The notes under the pieces were generated by a model that was given only the letters and a program-made list of their open reading frames with translations, ran no database searches and had not been told where the DNA came from. A stretch of DNA of 64,000 nucleotides from Enterobacteria phage phiC600P9: sequence record MZ681930.1, one strand, 5' to 3'. Both the position numbers and the translations under genes were made by a program. Shown piece by piece: positions 1 through 5,191 of the stretch; positions within the stretch are counted from its first letter, which is position 1; every line of letters begins with the position of its first letter.

Positions 1-9
1 TTTAAGGGT

Positions 10-618
10 TTACTTGGAAGATACATTGATGGCTTTGACATATTCTCTACATTCCTTAACAAATTTTTCTAGTAATAAATCGCTTTCAAAACTAGGATTT
101 TCCACGAATTTATCAAAAAGATCATCAACAATAGTTAAGATATTCTTTTTACTAAGAATACGTTTATTTTCATGCTTCGTTTCAGAATCAACTATAAGAG
201 TAAAGAAATATTTCTTTCCCTGAAATTTTACTGTAGTATCAATATAGAATAAATTTGACTTTTGTAAGTTACGTTTAAACCATGCGTCACTTAAACTATA
301 AACACCGAGATAATCAAAATCGTCGTTTAAATAACATACTGTCCATTCAGGAGAAATGAAATCAGTAAATTCAACATCAAAATCACACGTCAATGAATGA
401 ATTGATTCAATACTGTTAATAAGTATTCCAGGACGTATTAAAGACTTTTTACCTCTGGAAAATCTTCCAGAAAGACTTTCATTAGTTTCATATGAAGAAC
501 CCCAATAATAATTACGCCCTTCTGCCATACGTTTAAGAGCATTTAATAATTGGTCTGGAACATCAACTTGTCTTTGGAATTCTTCAAACATTGAATTGAA
601 ATCAATTTGCATTCTCAT
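10..618 (-). CDS. hypothetical protein, 202 aa, early accessory gene
   Basis: Complete ORF with ATG at 616-618; no motif recognised by eye; lies in minus-strand early block. Confidence 0.5.
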   Translation of the reverse strand: MRMQIDFNSMFEEFQRQVDVPDQLLNALKRMAEGRNYYWGSSYETNESLSGRFSRGKKSLIRPGILINSIESIHSLTCDFDVEFTDFISPEWTVCYLNDDFDYLGVYSLSDAWFKRNLQKSNLFYIDTTVKFQGKKYFFTLIVDSETKHENKRILSKKNILTIVDDLFDKFVENPSFESDLLLEKFVKECREYVKAINVSSK

Positions 619-659
619 TCTTATTTACTCCAAGTAATAGGGGCCGAAGCCCCTTATCA

Positions 660-1253
660 TTATTTCAGAGAATTAATGTATTCCTGAACATCGGCAGAGG
701 TAGTTTCAACCCCAGAAATATTACCATTAAAGGTTTCAACTCGAGCAAGAGTATCTTCAATATCAACCTTAGTCAGTGCTGCAATTTCAACTACATCATC
801 GGCAGTACTAATTCCAAGTGCATTCGCTGCACGAGTTTCACGGATATATTCCAATTTAACTGCAAGTTCTTGGCGAGCATCATCCAATTCAACTACTTTC
901 TTGGCGATTTCAATTCGCATTTCAGCATACCCATCAGCTTTAGTAGTTAACTGTTCAGCTGTTCGACGATATAGCAAGCCGAGTTTAGCATGCATTGTTA
1001 CATCTTGACCTTCGGAAAGAAGCTTGCGAATTTCACGCTCTTTTGATTCAGCCTGTTTATTCTTTTCAATAACAAGTTCACGAATACGTTTTTCTTCATT
1101 AATAGATTTAACAGAAGCAGTTTTTAGATCTTTAATTTTATCAAGTAGTTTTGCTGCTGCAGCAGTATACTGTTCTTCAACAGATAGATTTTTAGCCATA
1201 GCAGAACCAAGTTTAGTGCGAATAAACTCAACAATTTTCTTCAGTGTGTTCAT
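660..1253 (-). CDS. hypothetical coiled-coil protein, 197 aa (weak PspA/IM30-like character)
   Basis: ATG with SD AAGGAAA upstream; sequence is Ala/Glu/Lys/Arg/Leu-rich and predicted helical throughout; family assignment is a guess. Confidence 0.5.
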
Positions 1254-1309
1254 AGTATTTCCTTAGGTTGGTATAATTAGATAATATCACGTTTTAATAG
1301 ATGGTAAAC

Positions 1310-1645
1310 TTATTCTTCGTCTAGCTCGTCGATAAAGACGTTGATGGCCTCGATAACGGCATCATTGATAGCTAATAAAATAAAATCATCGTCAGTACCT
1401 TTAGAAGATTCTAAAGCATTGATATATGCTTGGTTGGCGAGTTCCCAAGCCTTTTTAAAATAAGGAGCTTCATCATCAGGACAAATATCCCGCACGCCTT
1501 CAAAGATACGTTTGGCATAATCTAACACCCATTGTACAGGCATGTTTTGAGAACGTTCGTTAAACTCTTTAAAGTCCTTAGATTCAAAAAGCTCTTCAGG
1601 ATAATTATTTCTATTACAAAAAGCTTTACTAAAGTTACGTTTCAT
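1310..1645 (-). CDS. hypothetical protein, 111 aa, acidic C-terminus
   Basis: ATG with SD GAGGAAA upstream; no recognisable motif. Confidence 0.45.
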   Translation of the reverse strand: MKRNFSKAFCNRNNYPEELFESKDFKEFNERSQNMPVQWVLDYAKRIFEGVRDICPDDEAPYFKKAWELANQAYINALESSKGTDDDFILLAINDAVIEAINVFIDELDEE

Positions 1646-1701
1646 AATGTTTTCCTCATTTGTATAGGCTCATAATATCTCAATCATGAGCCTATGTAAA
1701 C

Positions 1702-1965
1702 TTATTTCATATTATTGAAATATTCTTCTGCGATTTCGTCGTTATCATGGTAAACTTTAGAAGACAGTTTAACATAACTTTCAGCAGTGAACATGTTAAT
1801 CACAACCTTTACAGTATACCACTGACCATCTTCATTACCCATTACTGCGTAAGTTTCAAACATCGGATGATCAGGACCGATAACTTTAATATCATTCACT
1901 GTACGACCAAAATCTTCTGAAACACATTTCATAAAGAAGTTGAACAGTTCACCGTAATTATCCAT
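1702..1965 (-). CDS. hypothetical protein, about 87 aa
   Basis: ORF-track start at 1977 is TTG; in-frame ATG at 1963-1965 has SD GGAGAA 5 nt upstream. Confidence 0.4.
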   Translation of the reverse strand: MDNYGELFNFFMKCVSEDFGRTVNDIKVIGPDHPMFETYAVMGNEDGQWYTVKVVINMFTAESYVKLSSKVYHDNDEIAEEYFNNMK

Positions 1966-2138
1966 TTCATTCTCCAAGTTGTTTTCTGTATCAGTAGTTG
2001 ATAGTTGTATAGTACCATGGAAGAACAGGGAAGTTTTAGGGAATTCTAGGGCAGGGAGGGGAAATCAAAGGATAGGATAATATATTATAAAGGGTAGAAA
2101 CTAAATGATGTCTAGAGAGGCCTGGAAAGGCCTAGATA

Positions 2139-2166
2139 CCAAAAAGCCCCAACCTTTCGGCTAGGG
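2139..2166 (-). terminator. intrinsic terminator hairpin (minus strand), copy 1
   Basis: Minus-strand RNA AGCCCUAGCCGAAAGGUUGGGGCU followed by UUUUU; near-identical to the copy at 2696-2726. Confidence 0.6.
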
Positions 2167-2175
2167 CTAAGAATG

Positions 2176-2649
2176 TTATTTGATTTGTTTAGCAGACCAA
2201 ATGCGGTCTTTAATAATTTTTTGGATGTCTTCAACATATTCAAGAGAGTGAACATGTGGGTTATCTTTGAAACTATAAGCACGAGCTAGCTTTTGGCCTT
2301 CAGTTTTGATTACTAAAAGCTCTTTAAGGATAGCTTCATATCTGGAGATAATTCCTTTAACGATATTTTTCTCTTGTGTGACTTTAGGATCTGCTTTAGG
2401 AGCAGGTTTACCCGAAGCCTTTGCAAAAGCAGCGCCAGTAGCAACTAAACTTTTCCAGGCCATACTAACTGCATTCCCTGTAAATCCTTCGGCTTTCATA
2501 TCACGAGCAAATTGGAATCGTGATTCATCGGAAGCATCTTTATAGGAATATTTACCCGCGGCAATGGCTGCTTTTGCGACAGCTTGAATTTCGGTGCTAG
2601 ATGCTTCATTTAACACCGCTTCATTTAAAAATTGAGCATATGATTTCAT
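2176..2649 (-). CDS. internal-protein-like protein with N-terminal capsid targeting sequence, 157 aa
   Basis: N-terminus MKSYAQFLNEAVLNEA resembles the T4 internal-protein CTS (MKTYQEF...) with L-x-E cleavage motifs for prohead protease gp21; SD AGGAAA upstream. Confidence 0.5.
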   Translation of the reverse strand: MKSYAQFLNEAVLNEASSTEIQAVAKAAIAAGKYSYKDASDESRFQFARDMKAEGFTGNAVSMAWKSLVATGAAFAKASGKPAPKADPKVTQEKNIVKGIISRYEAILKELLVIKTEGQKLARAYSFKDNPHVHSLEYVEDIQKIIKDRIWSAKQIK

Positions 2650-2695
2650 CTTATTTCCTGTTTTAATTCGTGGTTTTAATATACTTATTTATACC

Positions 2696-2726
2696 AAAAA
2701 GCCCCAACCTTTCGGCTGGGGCTAAG
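2696..2726 (-). terminator. intrinsic terminator hairpin (minus strand), copy 2
   Basis: Minus-strand RNA AGCCCCAGCCGAAAGGUUGGGGCU followed by UUUUUGG; perfect 7-bp stem. Confidence 0.65.
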
Positions 2727-3034
2727 CCTTGCGGCAACCTTGTCGGGGTTCCACCTGCTAAGGCAAGTGTTTGTACGAAACGCCGGGACTTGAACCCGGT
2801 TATTAAGTAGTTGACGCTACTCAATATTTTTAAAAGGCCATATCTCGACCATATCCGAACGTTCCGTCAAAAACGCTACTCGGCTTACGGCAAAGATATT
2901 TCCTCGAATCGATAATTCGGTGCGCCGTTTCTGCTGTGATGTAAGGGGATATTAACAAATCGTAAAGATTTATTAAGACCAGTCCTTACTCAGGGAACAT
3001 CAGTCCGACGACTTACCGGTAGCGACCCGGTTTC
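2727..3034 (-). ncRNA. possible small stable RNA(s) downstream of the tRNA cluster (T4 species 1/2, RNA C/D analogue)
   Basis: About 300 nt with no ORF between gene 3035-3385 and the terminator; contains a tRNA T-arm-like element (CCGGGTTCAAGTCCCGG on minus strand, + coords 2783-2799) but no full cloverleaf; positional analogy only. Confidence 0.25.
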
Positions 3035-3385
3035 TTAATATTCTTTTAAAGCATCAATCTGTTCACGGCGTTTACGCCATAAATCAATTGCTTCATACGC
3101 GGATTCAGCATTTCGAATTGGTCGGCATTTATGTAAAGACTTGTGATTTTGATATTTTGTAGATAATGGAATTTTATCTAAAAGGTCTTTACGTTCAAAG
3201 TATTCGTAACCATCTAAACCAAATGAACGATTTTTGAGAAATTGCCAATGACCGTATTCGTTTTGGATGTAAATATAATCCGCGTGTTGATAAAGCAAAT
3301 TAGTTTCACGAGATGAGATATGGTTTTCATATTCATTGAAGTAAAATGTTAAATCATGAACTACTAAATAAACATTACCTTTCAT
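3035..3385 (-). CDS. hypothetical protein, 116 aa
   Basis: ATG at 3383-3385 with SD GAGGA upstream; no motif recognised. Confidence 0.45.
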   Translation of the reverse strand: MKGNVYLVVHDLTFYFNEYENHISSRETNLLYQHADYIYIQNEYGHWQFLKNRSFGLDGYEYFERKDLLDKIPLSTKYQNHKSLHKCRPIRNAESAYEAIDLWRKRREQIDALKEY

Positions 3386-3403
3386 ATTTTCCTCACTTAT
3401 AAT

Positions 3404-3479
3404 TGGTCGAGGCAGTAGGGATCGAACCTACGACCCAGGACTTAGAAGGTCCTTGCTCTTCCTTCTGAGCTATGCCTCG
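3404..3479 (-). tRNA. tRNA-Arg (anticodon TCT), CCA encoded
   Basis: Hand-folded cloverleaf on minus strand: 7-bp acceptor stem, anticodon loop CTTCTAA, T-arm GTAGG-TTCGATC-CCTAC. Confidence 0.8.
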
Positions 3480-3483
3480 TATT

Positions 3484-3558
3484 TGGCGGACGTGATAGGA
3501 TTCGAACCTATAACCAATCGCTTAACAGGCGATCGCTCTGCCATTGAGCTACACATCC
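3484..3558 (-). tRNA. tRNA-Asn (anticodon GTT), CCA encoded
   Basis: Hand-folded: acceptor GGATGTG/CACGTCC, anticodon stem ATCGC/GCGAT with loop CTGTTAA, T-loop TTCGAAT. Confidence 0.75.
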
Positions 3559-3562
3559 AAAT

Positions 3563-3649
3563 TGGTGGGGAGTGATGGAGTCGAACCACCCGAGTCGCAA
3601 TGACAATGGATTTACAGTCCACACCGCTACCTCTACGGGATAACTCCCC
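3563..3649 (-). tRNA. tRNA-Tyr (anticodon GTA), type II with long variable arm, CCA encoded
   Basis: Hand-folded: acceptor GGGGAGT/ACTCCCC, anticodon loop CTGTAAA, 87 nt. Confidence 0.7.
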
Positions 3650-3658
3650 AAATTAATT

Positions 3659-3733
3659 TGGTGGCCCTGGGTGGAATTGAACCACCATCTGGCGATTATG
3701 AGTCGCTTGCTTGAACCTTCCAGCTACAGGGCC
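3659..3733 (-). tRNA. tRNA with CAT anticodon (Met, or Ile2 if lysidine-modified like T4 tRNA-Ile)
   Basis: Hand-folded: acceptor GGCCCTG/CAGGGCC, anticodon loop CTCATAA, T-arm GGTGG-TTCAATT-CCACC. Confidence 0.75.
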
Positions 3734-3734
3734 T

Positions 3735-3810
3735 TGGTGCTGATTGACGGAATCGAACCGCCGACCTTCTCATTACAAGTGAGTTGCTCTACCTACTGAG
3801 CTAAATCAGC
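3735..3810 (-). tRNA. tRNA-Thr (anticodon TGT), CCA encoded
   Basis: Hand-folded: acceptor GCTGATT/AATCAGC, D-arm GCTC-AGTAGGTA-GAGC, anticodon loop CTTGTAA. Confidence 0.8.
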
Positions 3811-3815
3811 AAAAC

Positions 3816-3905
3816 TGGCGGAGGCGATAGGATTTGAACCTATGAGTCGCCGGAGCGACTGCCGGTTTTCAAGACCGGTGCATTAAACCACTCTGCCACG
3901 CCTCC
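3816..3905 (-). tRNA. tRNA-Ser (anticodon TGA), type II, CCA encoded
   Basis: Hand-folded: acceptor GGAGGCG/CGCCTCC, anticodon stem CCGGT/ACCGG with loop CTTGAAA, long variable arm. Confidence 0.8.
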
Positions 3906-3911
3906 AAATAT

Positions 3912-4520
3912 TTATATATTGCTAATTTGATTTAGAATTCTTTTTGCTTGAGTATGACTTACGCCAATATGCTTAGCATATTTAGATAATTCACCACGCT
4001 TAGAAAAATCATATAATTTAGAAATTTCTATTCTTCTTTTTCTTTCATCCGCAGAAACTTTTGCTTCGTTTGCTTTTGCTATTTTACGTTTAGCTTCTTG
4101 AGAATGATTTTTACCAGCAAAGCCATTCTTCATTAATCCATTTGAAGACCATCCTTTTAATTTTCCGTTAGAATGTGCCTTTTTAACACCCAATGAAATT
4201 AATTCGCGTTGCTGATCTGTCATAGGATAATTATTTATATGGTCCCATCCACCTTCTCCGCCAAGTTTTAAATTATACACATCTGGTCTATTTAAAAACT
4301 CTTCTGTGACAATATTTTTCTCGGCTTCAAGCATAGATTCTTTATCATCAAAATACTCTAATATTTCTTTAGAGAAATTTTCTATACCATACTTGTCTTG
4401 GGCTCTTTTTAATAATTTACCAGAACCCATATATCCATCATCTAAATTTTCGGTAGAATGCACACCAATATAAATTTTATTATTAATTTTATTTGTTATT
4501 TTATAAAGATAAAAATGCAT
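3912..4520 (-). CDS. segB: SegB-like GIY-YIG homing endonuclease inside the tRNA cluster
   Basis: GIY-YIG motifs (YLYKITN...KIYIGVHS...DGYMGSGK); position between tRNA sub-clusters as in T4. ORF track extends to 4562, but the ATG at 4518-4520 puts the GIY motif at residues 4-6 as in other Seg proteins. Confidence 0.7.
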   Translation of the reverse strand: MHFYLYKITNKINNKIYIGVHSTENLDDGYMGSGKLLKRAQDKYGIENFSKEILEYFDDKESMLEAEKNIVTEEFLNRPDVYNLKLGGEGGWDHINNYPMTDQQRELISLGVKKAHSNGKLKGWSSNGLMKNGFAGKNHSQEAKRKIAKANEAKVSADERKRRIEISKLYDFSKRGELSKYAKHIGVSHTQAKRILNQISNI

Positions 4521-4566
4521 ATCAGTCCCTAATAAAGAACTGAGCGTCTCACGACGAGTCATAAAT

Positions 4567-4640
<74 letters not shown>

Positions 4641-4645
4641 AAATT

Positions 4646-4732
4646 TGGTGCGAGAAGTGGGACTCGAACCCACAAGGAAATCATTCCGCAGCATTTTAAG
4701 TGCTGTGCCTTTACCAATTTGACCATTCTCGC
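4646..4732 (-). tRNA. tRNA-Leu (anticodon TAA), type II, CCA encoded
   Basis: Hand-folded: acceptor GCGAGAA/TTCTCGC, anticodon stem CAGCA/TGCTG with loop CTTAAAA, long variable arm. Confidence 0.8.
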
Positions 4733-4733
4733 G

Positions 4734-4806
4734 CTGGGAATAAAGGACTCGAACCTTTGCATCCTGGAATCAAAATCCAGTGCCTTACCAACTTGGCTAA
4801 TTCCCA
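4734..4806 (-). tRNA. tRNA-Gln (anticodon TTG), U1-A72 start, CCA not encoded
   Basis: Hand-folded: acceptor TGGGAAT/ATTCCCA, anticodon stem CTGGA/TCCAG with loop TTTTGAT; the U1:A72 start is a feature I recall for T4 tRNA-Gln. Confidence 0.75.
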
Positions 4807-4903
4807 ATTATTAACAAAGGCTCTCAAGCAAGAACCCTTGATGATAGAGGGTATTAATCAGTGCGATATGAGTTAATAATAACAAATAATTCTTAAAGCA
4901 TAT

Positions 4904-5191
4904 TTACCATTTATGATAATACATATTTACGATGCATTCAAGACCCAAAGGATTCTTGAAAATATCATATTCAAGAGGACCTTTTTCTGTTTCAATAAAG
5001 AAATCAAAATTTACTGTATTAAATTTACGGTCTTCCTTTACTAATTTAACCTGCGAAGATGAACGATCAATGTAAACCTTTTCAACTTCAAAACATGTTA
5101 AAATGCCATAATCATCAATCAAGGCTTTAGCCGCATCTTGATCATATTTATATCCATTTTCAACGGACGATACTTTCGCATAAAGAATCAT
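4904..5191 (-). CDS. hypothetical protein, 95 aa, hypervariable ipI-locus gene
   Basis: Complete ORF with ATG; no motif recognised. Confidence 0.45.
   Translation of the reverse strand: MILYAKVSSVENGYKYDQDAAKALIDDYGILTCFEVEKVYIDRSSSQVKLVKEDRKFNTVNFDFFIETEKGPLEYDIFKNPLGLECIVNMYYHKW

What the first reader, a model, noticed from the sequence alone, without database searches (positions are those of the whole stretch)
10..1977. Block of four early genes with no recognisable function upstream of the tRNA region
Four consecutive minus-strand ORFs (202, 197, 111 and about 87 aa) all have good SD sequences but no motif I can recognise. The 197-aa protein is an entirely helical, charged coiled coil reminiscent of PspA/IM30-type membrane-stress proteins. 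This position in T4-type genomes is a hotspot for host-takeover and anti-defence genes.
Basis: inference. Interest (0 to 1): 0.4.

Follow-up and report, generated by a model that had tools for sequence, protein, structure and literature searches.

The report
T4 e.5–e.8 genes; e.6 is PspA-like
The four genes are this phage's copies of the uncharacterised T4 early genes e.5, e.6, e.7 and e.8, and e.6 proves to be a compact phage version of the bacterial membrane-repair protein PspA/Vipp1, always followed by genes whose proteins share an undescribed C-terminal motif.

Summary
Four minus-strand ORFs lie at 10-618, 660-1253, 1310-1645 and 1702-1965. The window is Enterobacteria phage phiC600P9, a Tequatrovirus, and the ORFs are orthologues of T4 e.5, e.6, e.7 and e.8 (93-100% identity). 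In T4 all four are made early and are dispensable in a laboratory knock-down screen.

- A profile of the e.6 family hits Vipp1/PspA structures in register from residue 1.
- Two distant family members pass Pfam's PspA_IM30 threshold.
- The AlphaFold model has helices 2-20, 25-80 and 86-145, and Foldseek ranks Vipp1 first.
- A 2022 paper had already proposed this homology for the same PHROG.

e.6 occurs once each in 1,106 phage genomes. e.7 and e.8 come and go. The gene after e.6 is nearly always an e.5-family member, separated by a covarying GC hairpin.

Proteins encoded downstream of e.6 share a C-terminal motif, F-[IV]-x-x-C-R: 97 of 327 downstream ORFs against 0 of 367 upstream.

Best reading (inferred): e.6 preserves the host inner membrane after host shut-off, and the motif-bearing proteins may be its partners. 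I could assign no function to e.5, e.7 or e.8.

The parts
10..618 (-). Orthologue of T4 e.5 (202 aa). Soluble protein of unknown fold. It belongs to the family that nearly always follows e.6 directly.
   Evidence: 93% identical to T4 e.5 and matches phrog_2607. Homologues carry a precomputed Pfam family, PF26876, that is absent from the local Pfam copy. An e.5-family gene sits directly after e.6 in essentially all 40 T4-like loci: blastp finds it in 24, and an iterative search brings in nearly all the rest; one locus is only a weak 93-aa hit. Family alignment A3 has invariant N98, F186 and C190. There is no PDB sequence hit. The AlphaFold model reaches only pLDDT 58.6.
46..63 (-). Codons for the C-terminal motif F186-V-K-E-C-R191 of e.5. 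This motif is shared by many unrelated proteins encoded downstream of e.6.
   Evidence: The regex F[VIL]..C[RK] in the last 30 aa matches 97 of 327 ORFs downstream of e.6 and 0 of 367 upstream, across 40 loci (Fisher p 3e-36). It is the only such ORF among 85 gene-like ORFs in the 64-kb window. Codons at the conserved positions are freely synonymous.
637..657 (-). GC-rich hairpin with a UUCG loop (GGGGC-UUCG-GCCCC), starting 8 nt after the e.6 stop codon and ahead of the e.5 ribosome-binding site. Probably an attenuator or mRNA 3'-end stabiliser.
   Evidence: Folds at -13.1 kcal/mol and is identical in T4. A hairpin sits at this position in nearly all related loci with different, compensating stem sequences. 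The terminator-like scan also reports it, on the opposite strand. This type of element is described as the stem-loop part of PeSL cassettes (PMC2839356).
660..1253 (-). Orthologue of T4 e.6 (197 aa). A divergent, compact member of the PspA/IM30(Vipp1)/ESCRT-III superfamily.
   Evidence: 99% identical to T4 e.6 and matches phrog_1203. The family profile A2 hits Vipp1/PspA PDB sequences at E 1.1e-4 to 3e-3, aligning residues 1-146 with 1-147. Family members P0082 and P0080 score 39.0 and 35.1 bits against PF04012, whose gathering score is 33.9; both match the e.6 profile at E about 1e-20. The AlphaFold model has pLDDT 77 with helices 2-20, 25-80 and 86-145. Foldseek against PDB gives Vipp1 at ranks 1-9. 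hhalign against a PspA alignment gives E 1.2e-4.
1281..1308 (-). Sigma70-type early-promoter-like site (TTTACC, 16 nt, TATTAT, with TG) upstream of e.6.
   Evidence: Found by the consensus scan, in the e.7-e.6 intergenic space and in the correct orientation. The overall count of such sites in the region is not above the shuffle expectation, so only its position supports it.
1310..1645 (-). Orthologue of T4 e.7 (111 aa). Predicted function unknown; sporadic accessory gene.
   Evidence: 97% identical to T4 e.7 and matches phrog_7266. Present in only 182 phage records and 9 of 40 loci. No significant Pfam or PDB profile hit; the best is Imm5_like at E 0.046, below the cut-off.
1659..1700 (-). PeSL-like cassette between e.8 and e.7: an early-promoter-like site (TTTACA, 17 nt, TATTAT, at 1700 to 1672) overlapping an inverted repeat.
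   Evidence: Promoter scan. Inverted repeat with arms 1659-1676 and 1683-1700, 83% complementary. The architecture matches the PeSL elements of PMC2839356.
1702..1965 (-). Orthologue of T4 e.8 (87 aa). Function unknown.
   Evidence: 100% identical to T4 e.8 and matches phrog_2678. Present in 596 phage records and 13 of 40 loci. No significant Pfam or PDB profile hit.

Best explanation
The block is the phiC600P9 copy of T4 genes e.8, e.7, e.6 and e.5. They are transcribed early on the minus strand, downstream of the tRNA cluster, from sigma70-type promoters set in promoter/stem-loop cassettes.

Shown:
- e.6 is a remote but genuine homologue of PspA/Vipp1, the bacterial ESCRT-III-type membrane-protecting proteins.
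- It has an N-terminal amphipathic helix, a long helical hairpin with the same boundaries as in PspA/Vipp1, and a shortened C-terminal part.
- It is the conserved anchor of an otherwise variable region.
- It is followed, after a covarying hairpin, by an e.5-family gene and usually by further genes whose products end in [LIV]-E-x-F-[IV]-x-x-C-R.

Inferred mechanism:
- T4-type phages shut off host gene expression, so the infected cell cannot induce its own sigma54-dependent psp response.
- The phage therefore supplies its own PspA-like polymer. This binds the stressed inner membrane through helix alpha0 and keeps it tight and energised during the latent period.
- The stresses could be genome injection, superinfection, holin build-up during lysis inhibition, or membrane-depolarising abortive-infection effectors.
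- e.5 and the other motif-bearing proteins, a third of which have transmembrane segments, are proposed to be partners or recruiters of e.6 through their shared C-terminal helix.

e.7 and e.8 are sporadic accessory early genes, and no function can be assigned to them.

My confidence in each part: identity with T4 e.5-e.8 about 1.0; e.6 as a PspA-superfamily homologue about 0.85; the membrane-protecting role about 0.45; partnership with the motif proteins about 0.3. The overall figure of 0.55 is for the explanation as a whole.
For: Identity and expression:
- 100% DNA match to MT630408.
- 93-100% protein identity and identical order to T4 e.5-e.8.
- Early expression of the T4 orthologues, with all four classified by protein timing.

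e.6 homology:
- Profile A2 hits Vipp1/PspA as the top seven PDB sequences, in register from residue 1.
- P0082 and P0080 exceed the PF04012 gathering score, and both match the e.6 profile at E about 1e-20 over full length.
- The AlphaFold helices at 2-20, 25-80 and 86-145 match the Vipp1 boundaries of alpha0 at aa 1-22 and the hairpin at aa 24-142 (PMC8281802).
- Foldseek against PDB puts Vipp1 at ranks 1-9, 11, 13 and 15, archaeal CdvB2 at rank 10 and E. coli PspA at rank 30.
- Foldseek against viral models puts a Megaviridae Snf7 protein and an annotated phage PspA/IM30 protein directly after the e.6 family itself.
- hhalign against an enterobacterial PspA alignment gives E 1.2e-4, collinear over e.6 1-180 and PspA 1-176.
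- The N-terminal hydrophobic moment is 0.45, against 0.42 for E. coli PspA.
- An independent HHpred-based statement exists for phrog_1203 (PMC9409062).

Conservation and linkage:
- e.6 is in 1,106 phage records, single copy in each.
- The whole family forms only 45 clusters among 1.84 billion representatives, the full-length ones about 195-209 aa and the rest fragments.
- An e.5-family gene follows e.6 in essentially all of 40 loci.
- The hairpin covaries, and the motif is strongly enriched downstream.
- The arrangement persists in distant phages whose e.6-like gene lies in a different neighbourhood.
Against: - The window protein itself gives no PspA_IM30 hit in single-sequence Pfam or NCBIfam scans.
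- The narrow family profile A1 gave only non-significant Vipp1 hits, E 1.2-3.
- hhalign probability is only 55%, and against a single PspA sequence it is 30% or less.
- Coiled-coil proteins attract spurious matches: a prefoldin subunit scored E 1.1e-3 in the same search.
- Foldseek E-values are modest, 5e-3 at best.
- Helix alpha0 is modelled at low confidence, pLDDT 44-52. Its amphipathicity beats shuffles only at p about 0.07.
- Knock-down of e.5, e.6, e.7 or e.8 in T4 had no fitness effect in a laboratory host (PMC11879866, supplementary file 15). No phenotype therefore supports any function.
- The proposed e.6/motif-protein interaction rests on gene adjacency alone. The loci compared are related phages, so the ORF counts are not independent events.
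Confidence: 0.55

Rival explanations
1. e.6 is a specific counter-defence protein (anti-Abi). It neutralises host abortive-infection systems that kill by permeabilising or depolarising the inner membrane, rather than providing general membrane maintenance. e.5, e.7 and e.8 are likewise anti-defence or host-takeover genes.
For: - This hypothesis was put forward for a phrog_1203 member in a Kuttervirus (PMC9409062).
- All four genes are early and dispensable in a defence-poor laboratory host, as is typical of counter-defence genes.
- e.7 and e.8 are patchily distributed.
- The region carries PeSL-type shuffling cassettes.
Against: - e.6 is unusually well conserved for a counter-defence gene. It is single copy, of constant length, and present across Escherichia, Klebsiella, Aeromonas, Serratia and other phages. 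That pattern suggests a general role.
- No sequence or structure match links e.5, e.7 or e.8 to any known anti-defence protein.
- I did not scan a dedicated anti-defence library, and I found no experimental data.
Confidence: 0.2
2. e.6 is a molecular mimic of host PspA. It acts on the host Psp regulators (PspF, PspB/PspC) to silence or hijack the phage-shock response, and does not itself work on the membrane.
For: - e.6 aligns with PspA over the region that includes the hairpin.
- From general knowledge of the Psp system, the N-terminal part of PspA is what contacts PspF.
Against: - Identity to PspA is very low: 13% over the hhalign alignment.
- The same family occurs in phages of hosts as distant as Aeromonas.
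- T4-type phages shut off host transcription in any case (general knowledge), which makes control of a host transcription factor of little use.
Confidence: 0.08
3. e.6 is just a generic coiled-coil protein, for example a structural or 'host specificity' protein as many GenBank records label it. Its resemblance to PspA is coiled-coil noise.
For: - Many records call it 'host specificity protein', and one homologue is labelled 'tail completion protein'.
- Single-sequence Pfam scans return only miscellaneous coiled-coil families.
- A prefoldin hit appears at E 1e-3.
Against: - The Vipp1/PspA matches are full-length and in register from residue 1, unlike the noise hits.
- Two family members pass Pfam's curated PspA_IM30 threshold.
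- Helix boundaries coincide with those of Vipp1.
- Expression is early RNA and middle protein, not late as for virion proteins.
- The 'host specificity' label traces to an ACLAME family note with no evidence attached.
Confidence: 0.07

Closest known systems
Bacteriophage T4 genes e.5, e.6, e.7 and e.8 (NP_049741 to NP_049744)
   Same: Same order, strand and lengths, with 93%, 99%, 97% and 100% protein identity. They match the same PHROG families that a 2025 T4 study lists for these genes.
   Different: In this phage the space between e.8 and the tRNAs holds two ORFs (157 and 116 aa) where T4 has the small RNAs rnaC and rnaD. The tRNA set also differs.
PspA / IM30 (Vipp1) / LiaH family, Pfam PF04012, in the bacterial branch of the ESCRT-III superfamily
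   Same: - An N-terminal amphipathic helix followed by a roughly 120-residue helical hairpin, with the same boundaries.
- Alignment in register from residue 1.
- A conserved segment in e.6 (LARVETFNG) aligns with PspA's MARFESFERR segment.
   Different: - Shorter: 197 aa against 222 aa for PspA or about 260 aa for Vipp1.
- The part after residue 146 is compressed into short helices with its own conserved motifs: T174-F175, and Y192 with a C-terminal SLK.
- Sequence identity is only about 13-18%.
- It is phage-encoded and expressed from an early phage promoter, with no pspBCDE or pspF genes nearby.
- Polymerisation and membrane binding are untested.
Gp_125 of Salmonella phage SeF3a (Kuttervirus), phrog_1203, proposed as a phage PspA homologue and hypothetical anti-Abi factor (Gendre et al. 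2022, PMC9409062)
   Same: It belongs to the same PHROG family as e.6. The PspA homology was also inferred by profile comparison.
   Different: That paper does not mention T4 e.6, the conservation across T4-type phages, the e.5 partner, the hairpin or the C-terminal motif array. It reports no experiments.
PspA-PspB/PspC and LiaH-LiaI pairs, where a membrane protein recruits a PspA-type effector
   Same: A PspA-type gene sits next to genes for small proteins, some with one or two transmembrane segments, that could act as recruiters. The analogy rests on general knowledge of these systems.
   Different: There is no sequence similarity to PspB, PspC or LiaI. The phage proteins belong to many unrelated families that share only a C-terminal motif, and e.5 itself is soluble. 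No interaction has been tested.
PeSL cassettes (promoter-early stem-loop) of the hyperplastic regions of T4-type genomes (Arbiol et al. 2010, PMC2839356)
   Same: Intergenic sigma70-like promoters are combined with GGGG...CCCC-type stem-loops flanking small genes of unknown function.
   Different: The hairpin after e.6 is fixed in position across distant phages and covaries, rather than marking a shuffling breakpoint. e.6 and e.5 stay together while neighbouring cassettes change.

Membership tests
T4 e.5 / e.6 / e.7 / e.8 orthologous groups | High protein identity to the T4 proteins over full length | tested here: met
   93%, 99%, 97% and 100% identity with no gaps and equal lengths.
T4 e.5 / e.6 / e.7 / e.8 orthologous groups | Same gene order and orientation between the e/nudE genes and the tRNA cluster | tested here: met
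   Annotated maps of T4 and phiC600P9 and the tRNA positions.
PspA/IM30 family (Pfam PF04012; ESCRT-III superfamily) | Significant sequence or profile similarity to the family | tested here: met
   Not met by the window protein alone. Met at family level: P0082 scores 39.0 bits and P0080 35.1 bits against a gathering score of 33.9, and both match the e.6 profile at E about 1e-20. Profile A2 hits Vipp1/PspA in PDB at E 1.1e-4 to 3e-3. hhalign gives E 1.2e-4.
PspA/IM30 family (Pfam PF04012; ESCRT-III superfamily) | Helical hairpin alpha1-alpha2/3 spanning about residues 24-142 (PMC8281802) | tested here: met
   AlphaFold helices 25-80 and 86-145 with pLDDT 84-97. Foldseek's top hits are Vipp1, with TM 0.68-0.70 and rmsd 3.2-4.2 A on hairpin-only chains.
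PspA/IM30 family (Pfam PF04012; ESCRT-III superfamily) | N-terminal amphipathic membrane-binding helix alpha0 (about aa 1-22) | tested here: inconclusive
   A helix is predicted at 2-20 but at pLDDT 44-52. The hydrophobic moment is 0.45, against 0.42 for E. coli PspA, with a family mean of 0.42; shuffle p is about 0.07. Distant members begin MGILSRI or MSIFQRL, resembling the PspA N-terminus MGIFSRF.
PspA/IM30 family (Pfam PF04012; ESCRT-III superfamily) | Helices alpha4 and alpha5, with alpha5 packing on a neighbour's hairpin | tested here: inconclusive
   Only short helices are predicted, at 151-160, 166-170 and 186-196. hhalign carries the alignment to PspA residue 176, which includes the FESFE segment. 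The last helix was not aligned.
PspA/IM30 family (Pfam PF04012; ESCRT-III superfamily) | Self-assembly into rings, rods or carpets, and binding or remodelling of membranes | not testable with these tools
   Needs purified protein, electron microscopy and liposome assays.
PeSL promoter/stem-loop cassettes of T4-type hyperplastic regions | An intergenic sigma70-like promoter combined with a stable stem-loop | tested here: met
   A promoter-like site at 1700 to 1672 overlaps the inverted repeat 1659-1676/1683-1700. The definition comes from PMC2839356. Promoter and terminator activity were not tested.
Small alarmone synthetase / nucleotidyltransferase fold (considered for e.5) | A confident structural match and conserved catalytic motifs | tested here: not met
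   Foldseek hits have E 0.018 or worse, probability 0.33 or less and TM about 0.16, on a model of pLDDT 58.6. The only invariant residues in the family are N98, F186 and C190, with no acidic or glycine-rich catalytic motif conserved.
Imm5-like immunity proteins (considered for e.7) | A Pfam PF21805 score above the gathering cut-off | tested here: not met
   14.1 bits against a cut-off of 25, E 0.046. Only the two T4-type members of the seven scanned match.

The most novel reading that the evidence does not exclude
T4-type and related large virulent phages carry a dedicated membrane-maintenance module. It consists of a compact PspA/ESCRT-III-like polymer (e.6) and a variable set of soluble and membrane-anchored client or recruiter proteins that dock through a shared C-terminal [LIV]-E-x-F-[IV]-x-x-C-R helix (e.5, e.3, e.4 and many others). 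The module would replace the host phage-shock response after host shut-off. It would set how long the infected cell's membrane stays energised, for example during lysis inhibition or under attack by membrane-targeting defences.
Probability: 0.25. Interest if true: 0.7.

Novelty: new variant of a known kind. Interest (0 to 1): 0.5.

Why it matters
T4 is the best-studied large phage, yet about half of its genes have no known function (general knowledge). A 2025 genome-wide study still listed e.5-e.8 as unknown.

Recognising e.6 as a PspA/Vipp1-type protein present in more than a thousand phage genomes makes a specific idea testable in a tractable system: that virulent phages bring their own membrane-repair machinery.

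The C-terminal motif shared by otherwise unrelated proteins encoded just downstream of e.6 gives a handle on a whole cluster of orphan genes (e.2-e.5 and their counterparts). If it is a docking motif, it would be a new way of recruiting a bacterial ESCRT-III-like polymer.

The result also corrects a propagated mis-annotation ('host specificity protein').

Tried and rejected
- Single-sequence Pfam, PHROG and NCBIfam scans of the four proteins gave only 'unknown function' PHROGs and sub-threshold noise.
- The narrow e.6 profile A1 against PDB sequences gave Vipp1 hits that were not significant. Scans of A1 members against Pfam gave only coiled-coil noise.
- hhalign of A1 or A2 against a single E. 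coli PspA sequence was weak.
- The genome-contig scan for PspA returned only enterobacterial sequences, 83-100% identical. The resulting PspA profile was shallow, Neff 1.5.
- An exhaustive HMMER profile search reached no bona fide cellular PspA at E 0.001 or better. The link to PF04012 is therefore transitive.
- e.5: no PDB sequence hit. The profile search added few relatives. The model from A4 was low-confidence, and I reject its alarmone-synthetase/nucleotidyltransferase Foldseek hits as unreliable.
- e.7 and e.8: family profiles gave nothing significant in PDB or Pfam. I reject the Imm5-like lead for e.7.
- Genes downstream of distant e.6-like genes were not significantly e.5-like by HMM or hhalign. 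Only the C-terminal motif variant links them.
- The idea that the C-terminal motif reflects a conserved DNA element is rejected, because its codons are freely synonymous.
- Literature searches for e.5-e.8 by gene name or accession found no functional study. The omics, Silas-lab, HIDEN-SEQ and CRISPRi-ART main texts do not discuss these genes.
- The AlphaFold-database Foldseek library was unavailable.
Full report
**What is there.** The window's first 2,100 bases are 100% identical to Enterobacteria phage phiC600P9 (MT630408, a Tequatrovirus). They are 96-99% identical to hundreds of T4-like phages.

Coordinate 1977 is an in-frame upstream TTG. Each has a Shine-Dalgarno-like sequence 4-9 nt before its ATG, read directly.

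Comparison with the annotated T4 genome shows that they are the orthologues of e.5, e.6, e.7 and e.8. Lengths, order and strand are the same, and identities are 93%, 99%, 97% and 100%.

The tRNA cluster lies at 3404-4806 on the same strand. The block is therefore transcriptionally downstream of the tRNAs, not upstream. Two further ORFs (157 and 116 aa) occupy the space where T4 has the small RNAs rnaC and rnaD.

**Expression and dispensability of the T4 orthologues.** A time-resolved T4 transcriptome and proteome study classifies e.5, e.7 and e.8 as early RNA and early protein, and e.6 as early RNA and middle protein. All four are therefore made as proteins (PMC9697503, supplementary files 4 and 6).

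Sigma70-type promoter-like sites (GTTTAC-type -35, TATTAT -10) sit in the correct orientation before e.7 (1700 to 1672) and e.6 (1308 to 1281). The number of such sites in the region is no higher than in shuffles, so only their placement counts as evidence.

In a genome-wide dCas13d knock-down screen of T4, all four genes were 'Not Fit', meaning no fitness effect. Their literature essentiality was listed as 'UNKNOWN' and their function as unknown (PMC11879866, supplementary files 8 and 15).

**e.6 is a PspA/Vipp1-type protein.** Single-sequence scans see nothing but an 'unknown function' PHROG (phrog_1203) and coiled-coil noise.

The family is compact. It forms 49 clusters at 90% identity in 5.8 billion proteins, and only 45 clusters at 50% identity in an exhaustive search of 1.84 billion representatives. 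The full-length members are about 195-209 aa and the rest are fragments.

Several independent lines then connect the family to PspA/IM30:
1. A profile of a diverse family alignment (A2, 37 sequences down to 18% identity) hits Vipp1/PspA as the seven best PDB sequences and the ninth. E-values run from 1.1e-4 to 3e-3, and residues 1-146 align with 1-147, in register from the first residue.
2. Family members P0082 and P0080 matched the narrow e.6 profile at E about 1e-20 over full length. They score 39.0 and 35.1 bits against Pfam PF04012 PspA_IM30, above its curated cut-off of 33.9. Both lie in T4-like phage contigs next to a gp41-type helicase, and P0082's contig also carries UvsX.
3. The AlphaFold model (pLDDT 77) has helices at 2-20, 25-80 and 86-145. 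These match the published Vipp1 boundaries: helix alpha0 at aa 1-22 and the hairpin at aa 24-142 (PMC8281802).
4. Foldseek against the PDB ranks Vipp1 chains 1-9, 11, 13 and 15, archaeal CdvB2 10th and E. coli PspA 30th. TM is 0.68-0.70 on hairpin-only chains. Against viral models, the next hits after the e.6 family itself are a Megaviridae Snf7 protein and an annotated phage 'PspA/IM30 family protein'.
5. hhalign of A2 against an enterobacterial PspA alignment gives E 1.2e-4. The alignment is collinear over e.6 1-180 and PspA 1-176.
6. One paper had already stated that HHpred 'strongly suggests' a Kuttervirus member of phrog_1203 is a PspA homologue, and had speculated on an anti-Abi role (PMC9409062).

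The weak points are these. Every direct statistic for the T4-type sequence is modest. A prefoldin coiled coil scored E 1e-3 in the same search. Helix alpha0 is modelled with low confidence and is only marginally more amphipathic than shuffles (hydrophobic moment 0.45 against 0.42 for PspA; p about 0.07). The region after residue 146 is shorter than in PspA and has its own conserved motifs. I put the homology at about 0.85.

**What is constant and what varies around e.6.** By tblastn, e.6 is present once each in 1,106 of 50,697 phage records: Escherichia, Klebsiella, Shigella, Aeromonas, Enterobacter, Yersinia, Citrobacter, Salmonella, Serratia and others. The other genes are less widespread: e.5 in 643 records, e.8 in 596 and e.7 in 182.

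I compared 40 T4-like loci fetched through the e.6 alignment. e.7 is present in 9 and e.8 in 13. The gene directly after e.6 is an e.5-family member in essentially all of them. Blastp finds it in 24, and an iterative search on the local ORF set pulls in nearly all the rest, always at that position; one locus is only a weak 93-aa hit. The e.5 family is very divergent, 11-47% identity, with invariant N98, F186 and C190.

A GC-rich hairpin, often with a UUCG loop, lies 5-15 nt after the e.6 stop in nearly every locus. Its stem sequences differ and compensate between phages: GGGGC/GCCCC, GGGAGAC/GUCUCCC, GAGGGC/GCCCUC, CCGGGGA/UCCCCGG and others. In the window it is at 637-657.

Such promoter/stem-loop elements are known in the hyperplastic regions of T4-type genomes as PeSL cassettes (PMC2839356). 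The e.8-e.7 spacer has that architecture too.

**A shared C-terminal motif downstream of e.6.** The e.5 C-terminus (LEKFVKECREYV) resembles those of e.3 (KEFVSDCRKIK), a 162-aa neighbour (NFITECRKLK) and, as a variant, e.4 (KFVKESRCK).

I searched the 40 loci for F[VIL]..C[RK] within the last 30 residues. It occurs in 97 of 327 ORFs within 4 kb downstream of e.6 and in 0 of 367 upstream ORFs (Fisher p 3e-36). Thirty-eight of the 40 loci have at least one, usually two or three and up to five.

At least 15 families unrelated by BLAST carry the motif, and about a third have one or two hydrophobic segments. Codons at the F, C and R positions are freely synonymous: TGT and TGC 38 each, and six Arg codons. 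Selection therefore acts on the protein, not on a DNA element. In the whole 64-kb window, e.5 is the only one of 85 gene-like ORFs with the motif.

Some phages have an e.6-like gene only about 20-25% identical that sits in a different neighbourhood. In these, 8 of 10 downstream genes and 0 of 4 upstream genes end in a variant motif, such as ESILARAR, SIIHQARQR or FVRDC.

Three caveats apply. The ORF sets are mechanical. The loci are related, so the counts are not independent events. The variant motif is loose. I found no description of this motif, but I did not search the literature specifically for it.

**e.5, e.7 and e.8 themselves.** Family profiles gave no PDB sequence hit for e.5 and only noise for e.7 and e.8. 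Pfam scans of all family members gave nothing significant.

e.5 homologues carry a precomputed Pfam accession, PF26876, that is not in the local library. Its name is therefore unknown to me. The e.5 model was poor (pLDDT 58.6). Its Foldseek hits to small alarmone synthetases and nucleotidyltransferases have TM about 0.16, and no catalytic motif is conserved. I reject that lead.

**Most likely mechanism.** This part is inference. T4-type phages shut off host gene expression (general knowledge), so an infected cell cannot mount its sigma54-dependent psp response. An early-expressed phage PspA-like protein could bind and stabilise the inner membrane through helix alpha0 and hairpin-mediated polymerisation, as PspA and Vipp1 do (PMC8281802). 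That would keep the proton-motive force intact through injection, superinfection, lysis inhibition or attack by membrane-depolarising defences.

The tight, deep linkage with e.5 and the motif-bearing proteins suggests that these are partners, regulators or recruiters, by analogy with PspB/PspC-PspA and LiaI-LiaH. The lack of a knock-down phenotype in a laboratory host fits a conditional role, but it also means that no functional evidence exists.

The rivals are a dedicated anti-Abi function, mimicry of PspA towards host regulators, and a meaningless coiled coil. I weigh each in the rival-explanations section.

**Verdict.** The PspA hunch and the 'early genes' claim were right. 'No recognisable function' is no longer true for e.6, and the anti-defence idea is untested.

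e.6 is a divergent member of a known superfamily whose phage branch had been noticed once in silico. The conserved e.6-hairpin-e.5 arrangement and the C-terminal motif array were, as far as I could find, not described.

Noticed in passing
window 2136-2171 and 2691-2726 (minus-strand terminators at 2168-2145 and 2723-2700): Two 36-nt direct repeats, 97% identical, each contain a strong terminator hairpin followed by a T-run. They flank the 157-aa ORF at 2176-2649, which gives it the look of a cassette. In related phages this ORF family (phrog_2280) is often present as two or three tandem copies.
   Followed up: partly
window 2176-2649 and 3035-3385 (minus strand): Two ORFs (157 aa, phrog_2280; 116 aa, phrog_3355), both of unknown function, occupy the interval between e.8 and the tRNAs. 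T4 has the small stable RNAs rnaC and rnaD there. Rfam finds only tRNAs in 1-5000.
   Followed up: partly
window 3404-4806 (minus strand): ARAGORN finds nine tRNAs: Arg, Asn, Tyr, Met, Thr, Ser, Gly, Leu and Gln. T4 has eight: Arg, Ile, Thr, Ser, Pro, Gly, Leu and Gln. The GenBank record of this phage annotates eight and omits the tRNA-Tyr at 3563-3649, which reaches only 30.2 bits in Rfam, just above the cut-off of 29. A GIY-YIG (SegB-like) homing endonuclease ORF at 3912-4562 splits the cluster.
   Followed up: no
window 1-41 (minus strand), continuing left of the window; L002 5649-6041: An orthologue of T4 e.4, a predicted two-pass membrane protein, is intact in phiC600P9 but not annotated in MT630408. 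Its start overlaps the 3' end of e.5 by 32 nt, as in T4. Its C-terminus, KFVKESRCKSQN, is a variant of the e.5 motif.
   Followed up: partly
L001 3473-3628 (T4, between nudE and e.2): T4 has an unannotated 51-aa ORF ending in NFITECRKLK. It looks like the C-terminal remnant of the 162-aa motif-bearing gene that is intact in phiC600P9 at L002 4820-5308.
   Followed up: no
window 660-1253; GenBank records listed: Many deposited genomes label the e.6 orthologue 'host specificity protein' (from ACLAME family 1259), and one homologue is labelled 'tail completion protein'. I found nothing to support either label. They look like propagated annotation errors.
   Followed up: partly
L004 6650-7210 and L126 4161-4754: In two distant T4-like contigs, the gene directly after the e.6-like PspA_IM30 gene encodes a protein with an N-terminal transmembrane helix and a C-terminal ESIL(A/N)(R/N)AR motif. 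That would fit a membrane anchor for the PspA-like protein. Similarity to e.5 is not significant.
   Followed up: partly
L110, L121, L122 (Aeromonas-type and large T4-like phages): In these loci the e.5-family gene after e.6 is present as two tandem paralogues.
   Followed up: no
loci L101-L118, about 10-25 nt after the e.6 hairpin: A short conserved sequence, (T/C)GGGATAAT or TTGGAG, follows the hairpin in many phages, ahead of the e.5 ribosome-binding site. I did not examine whether it is part of a promoter, a processing site or just the Shine-Dalgarno region.
   Followed up: no
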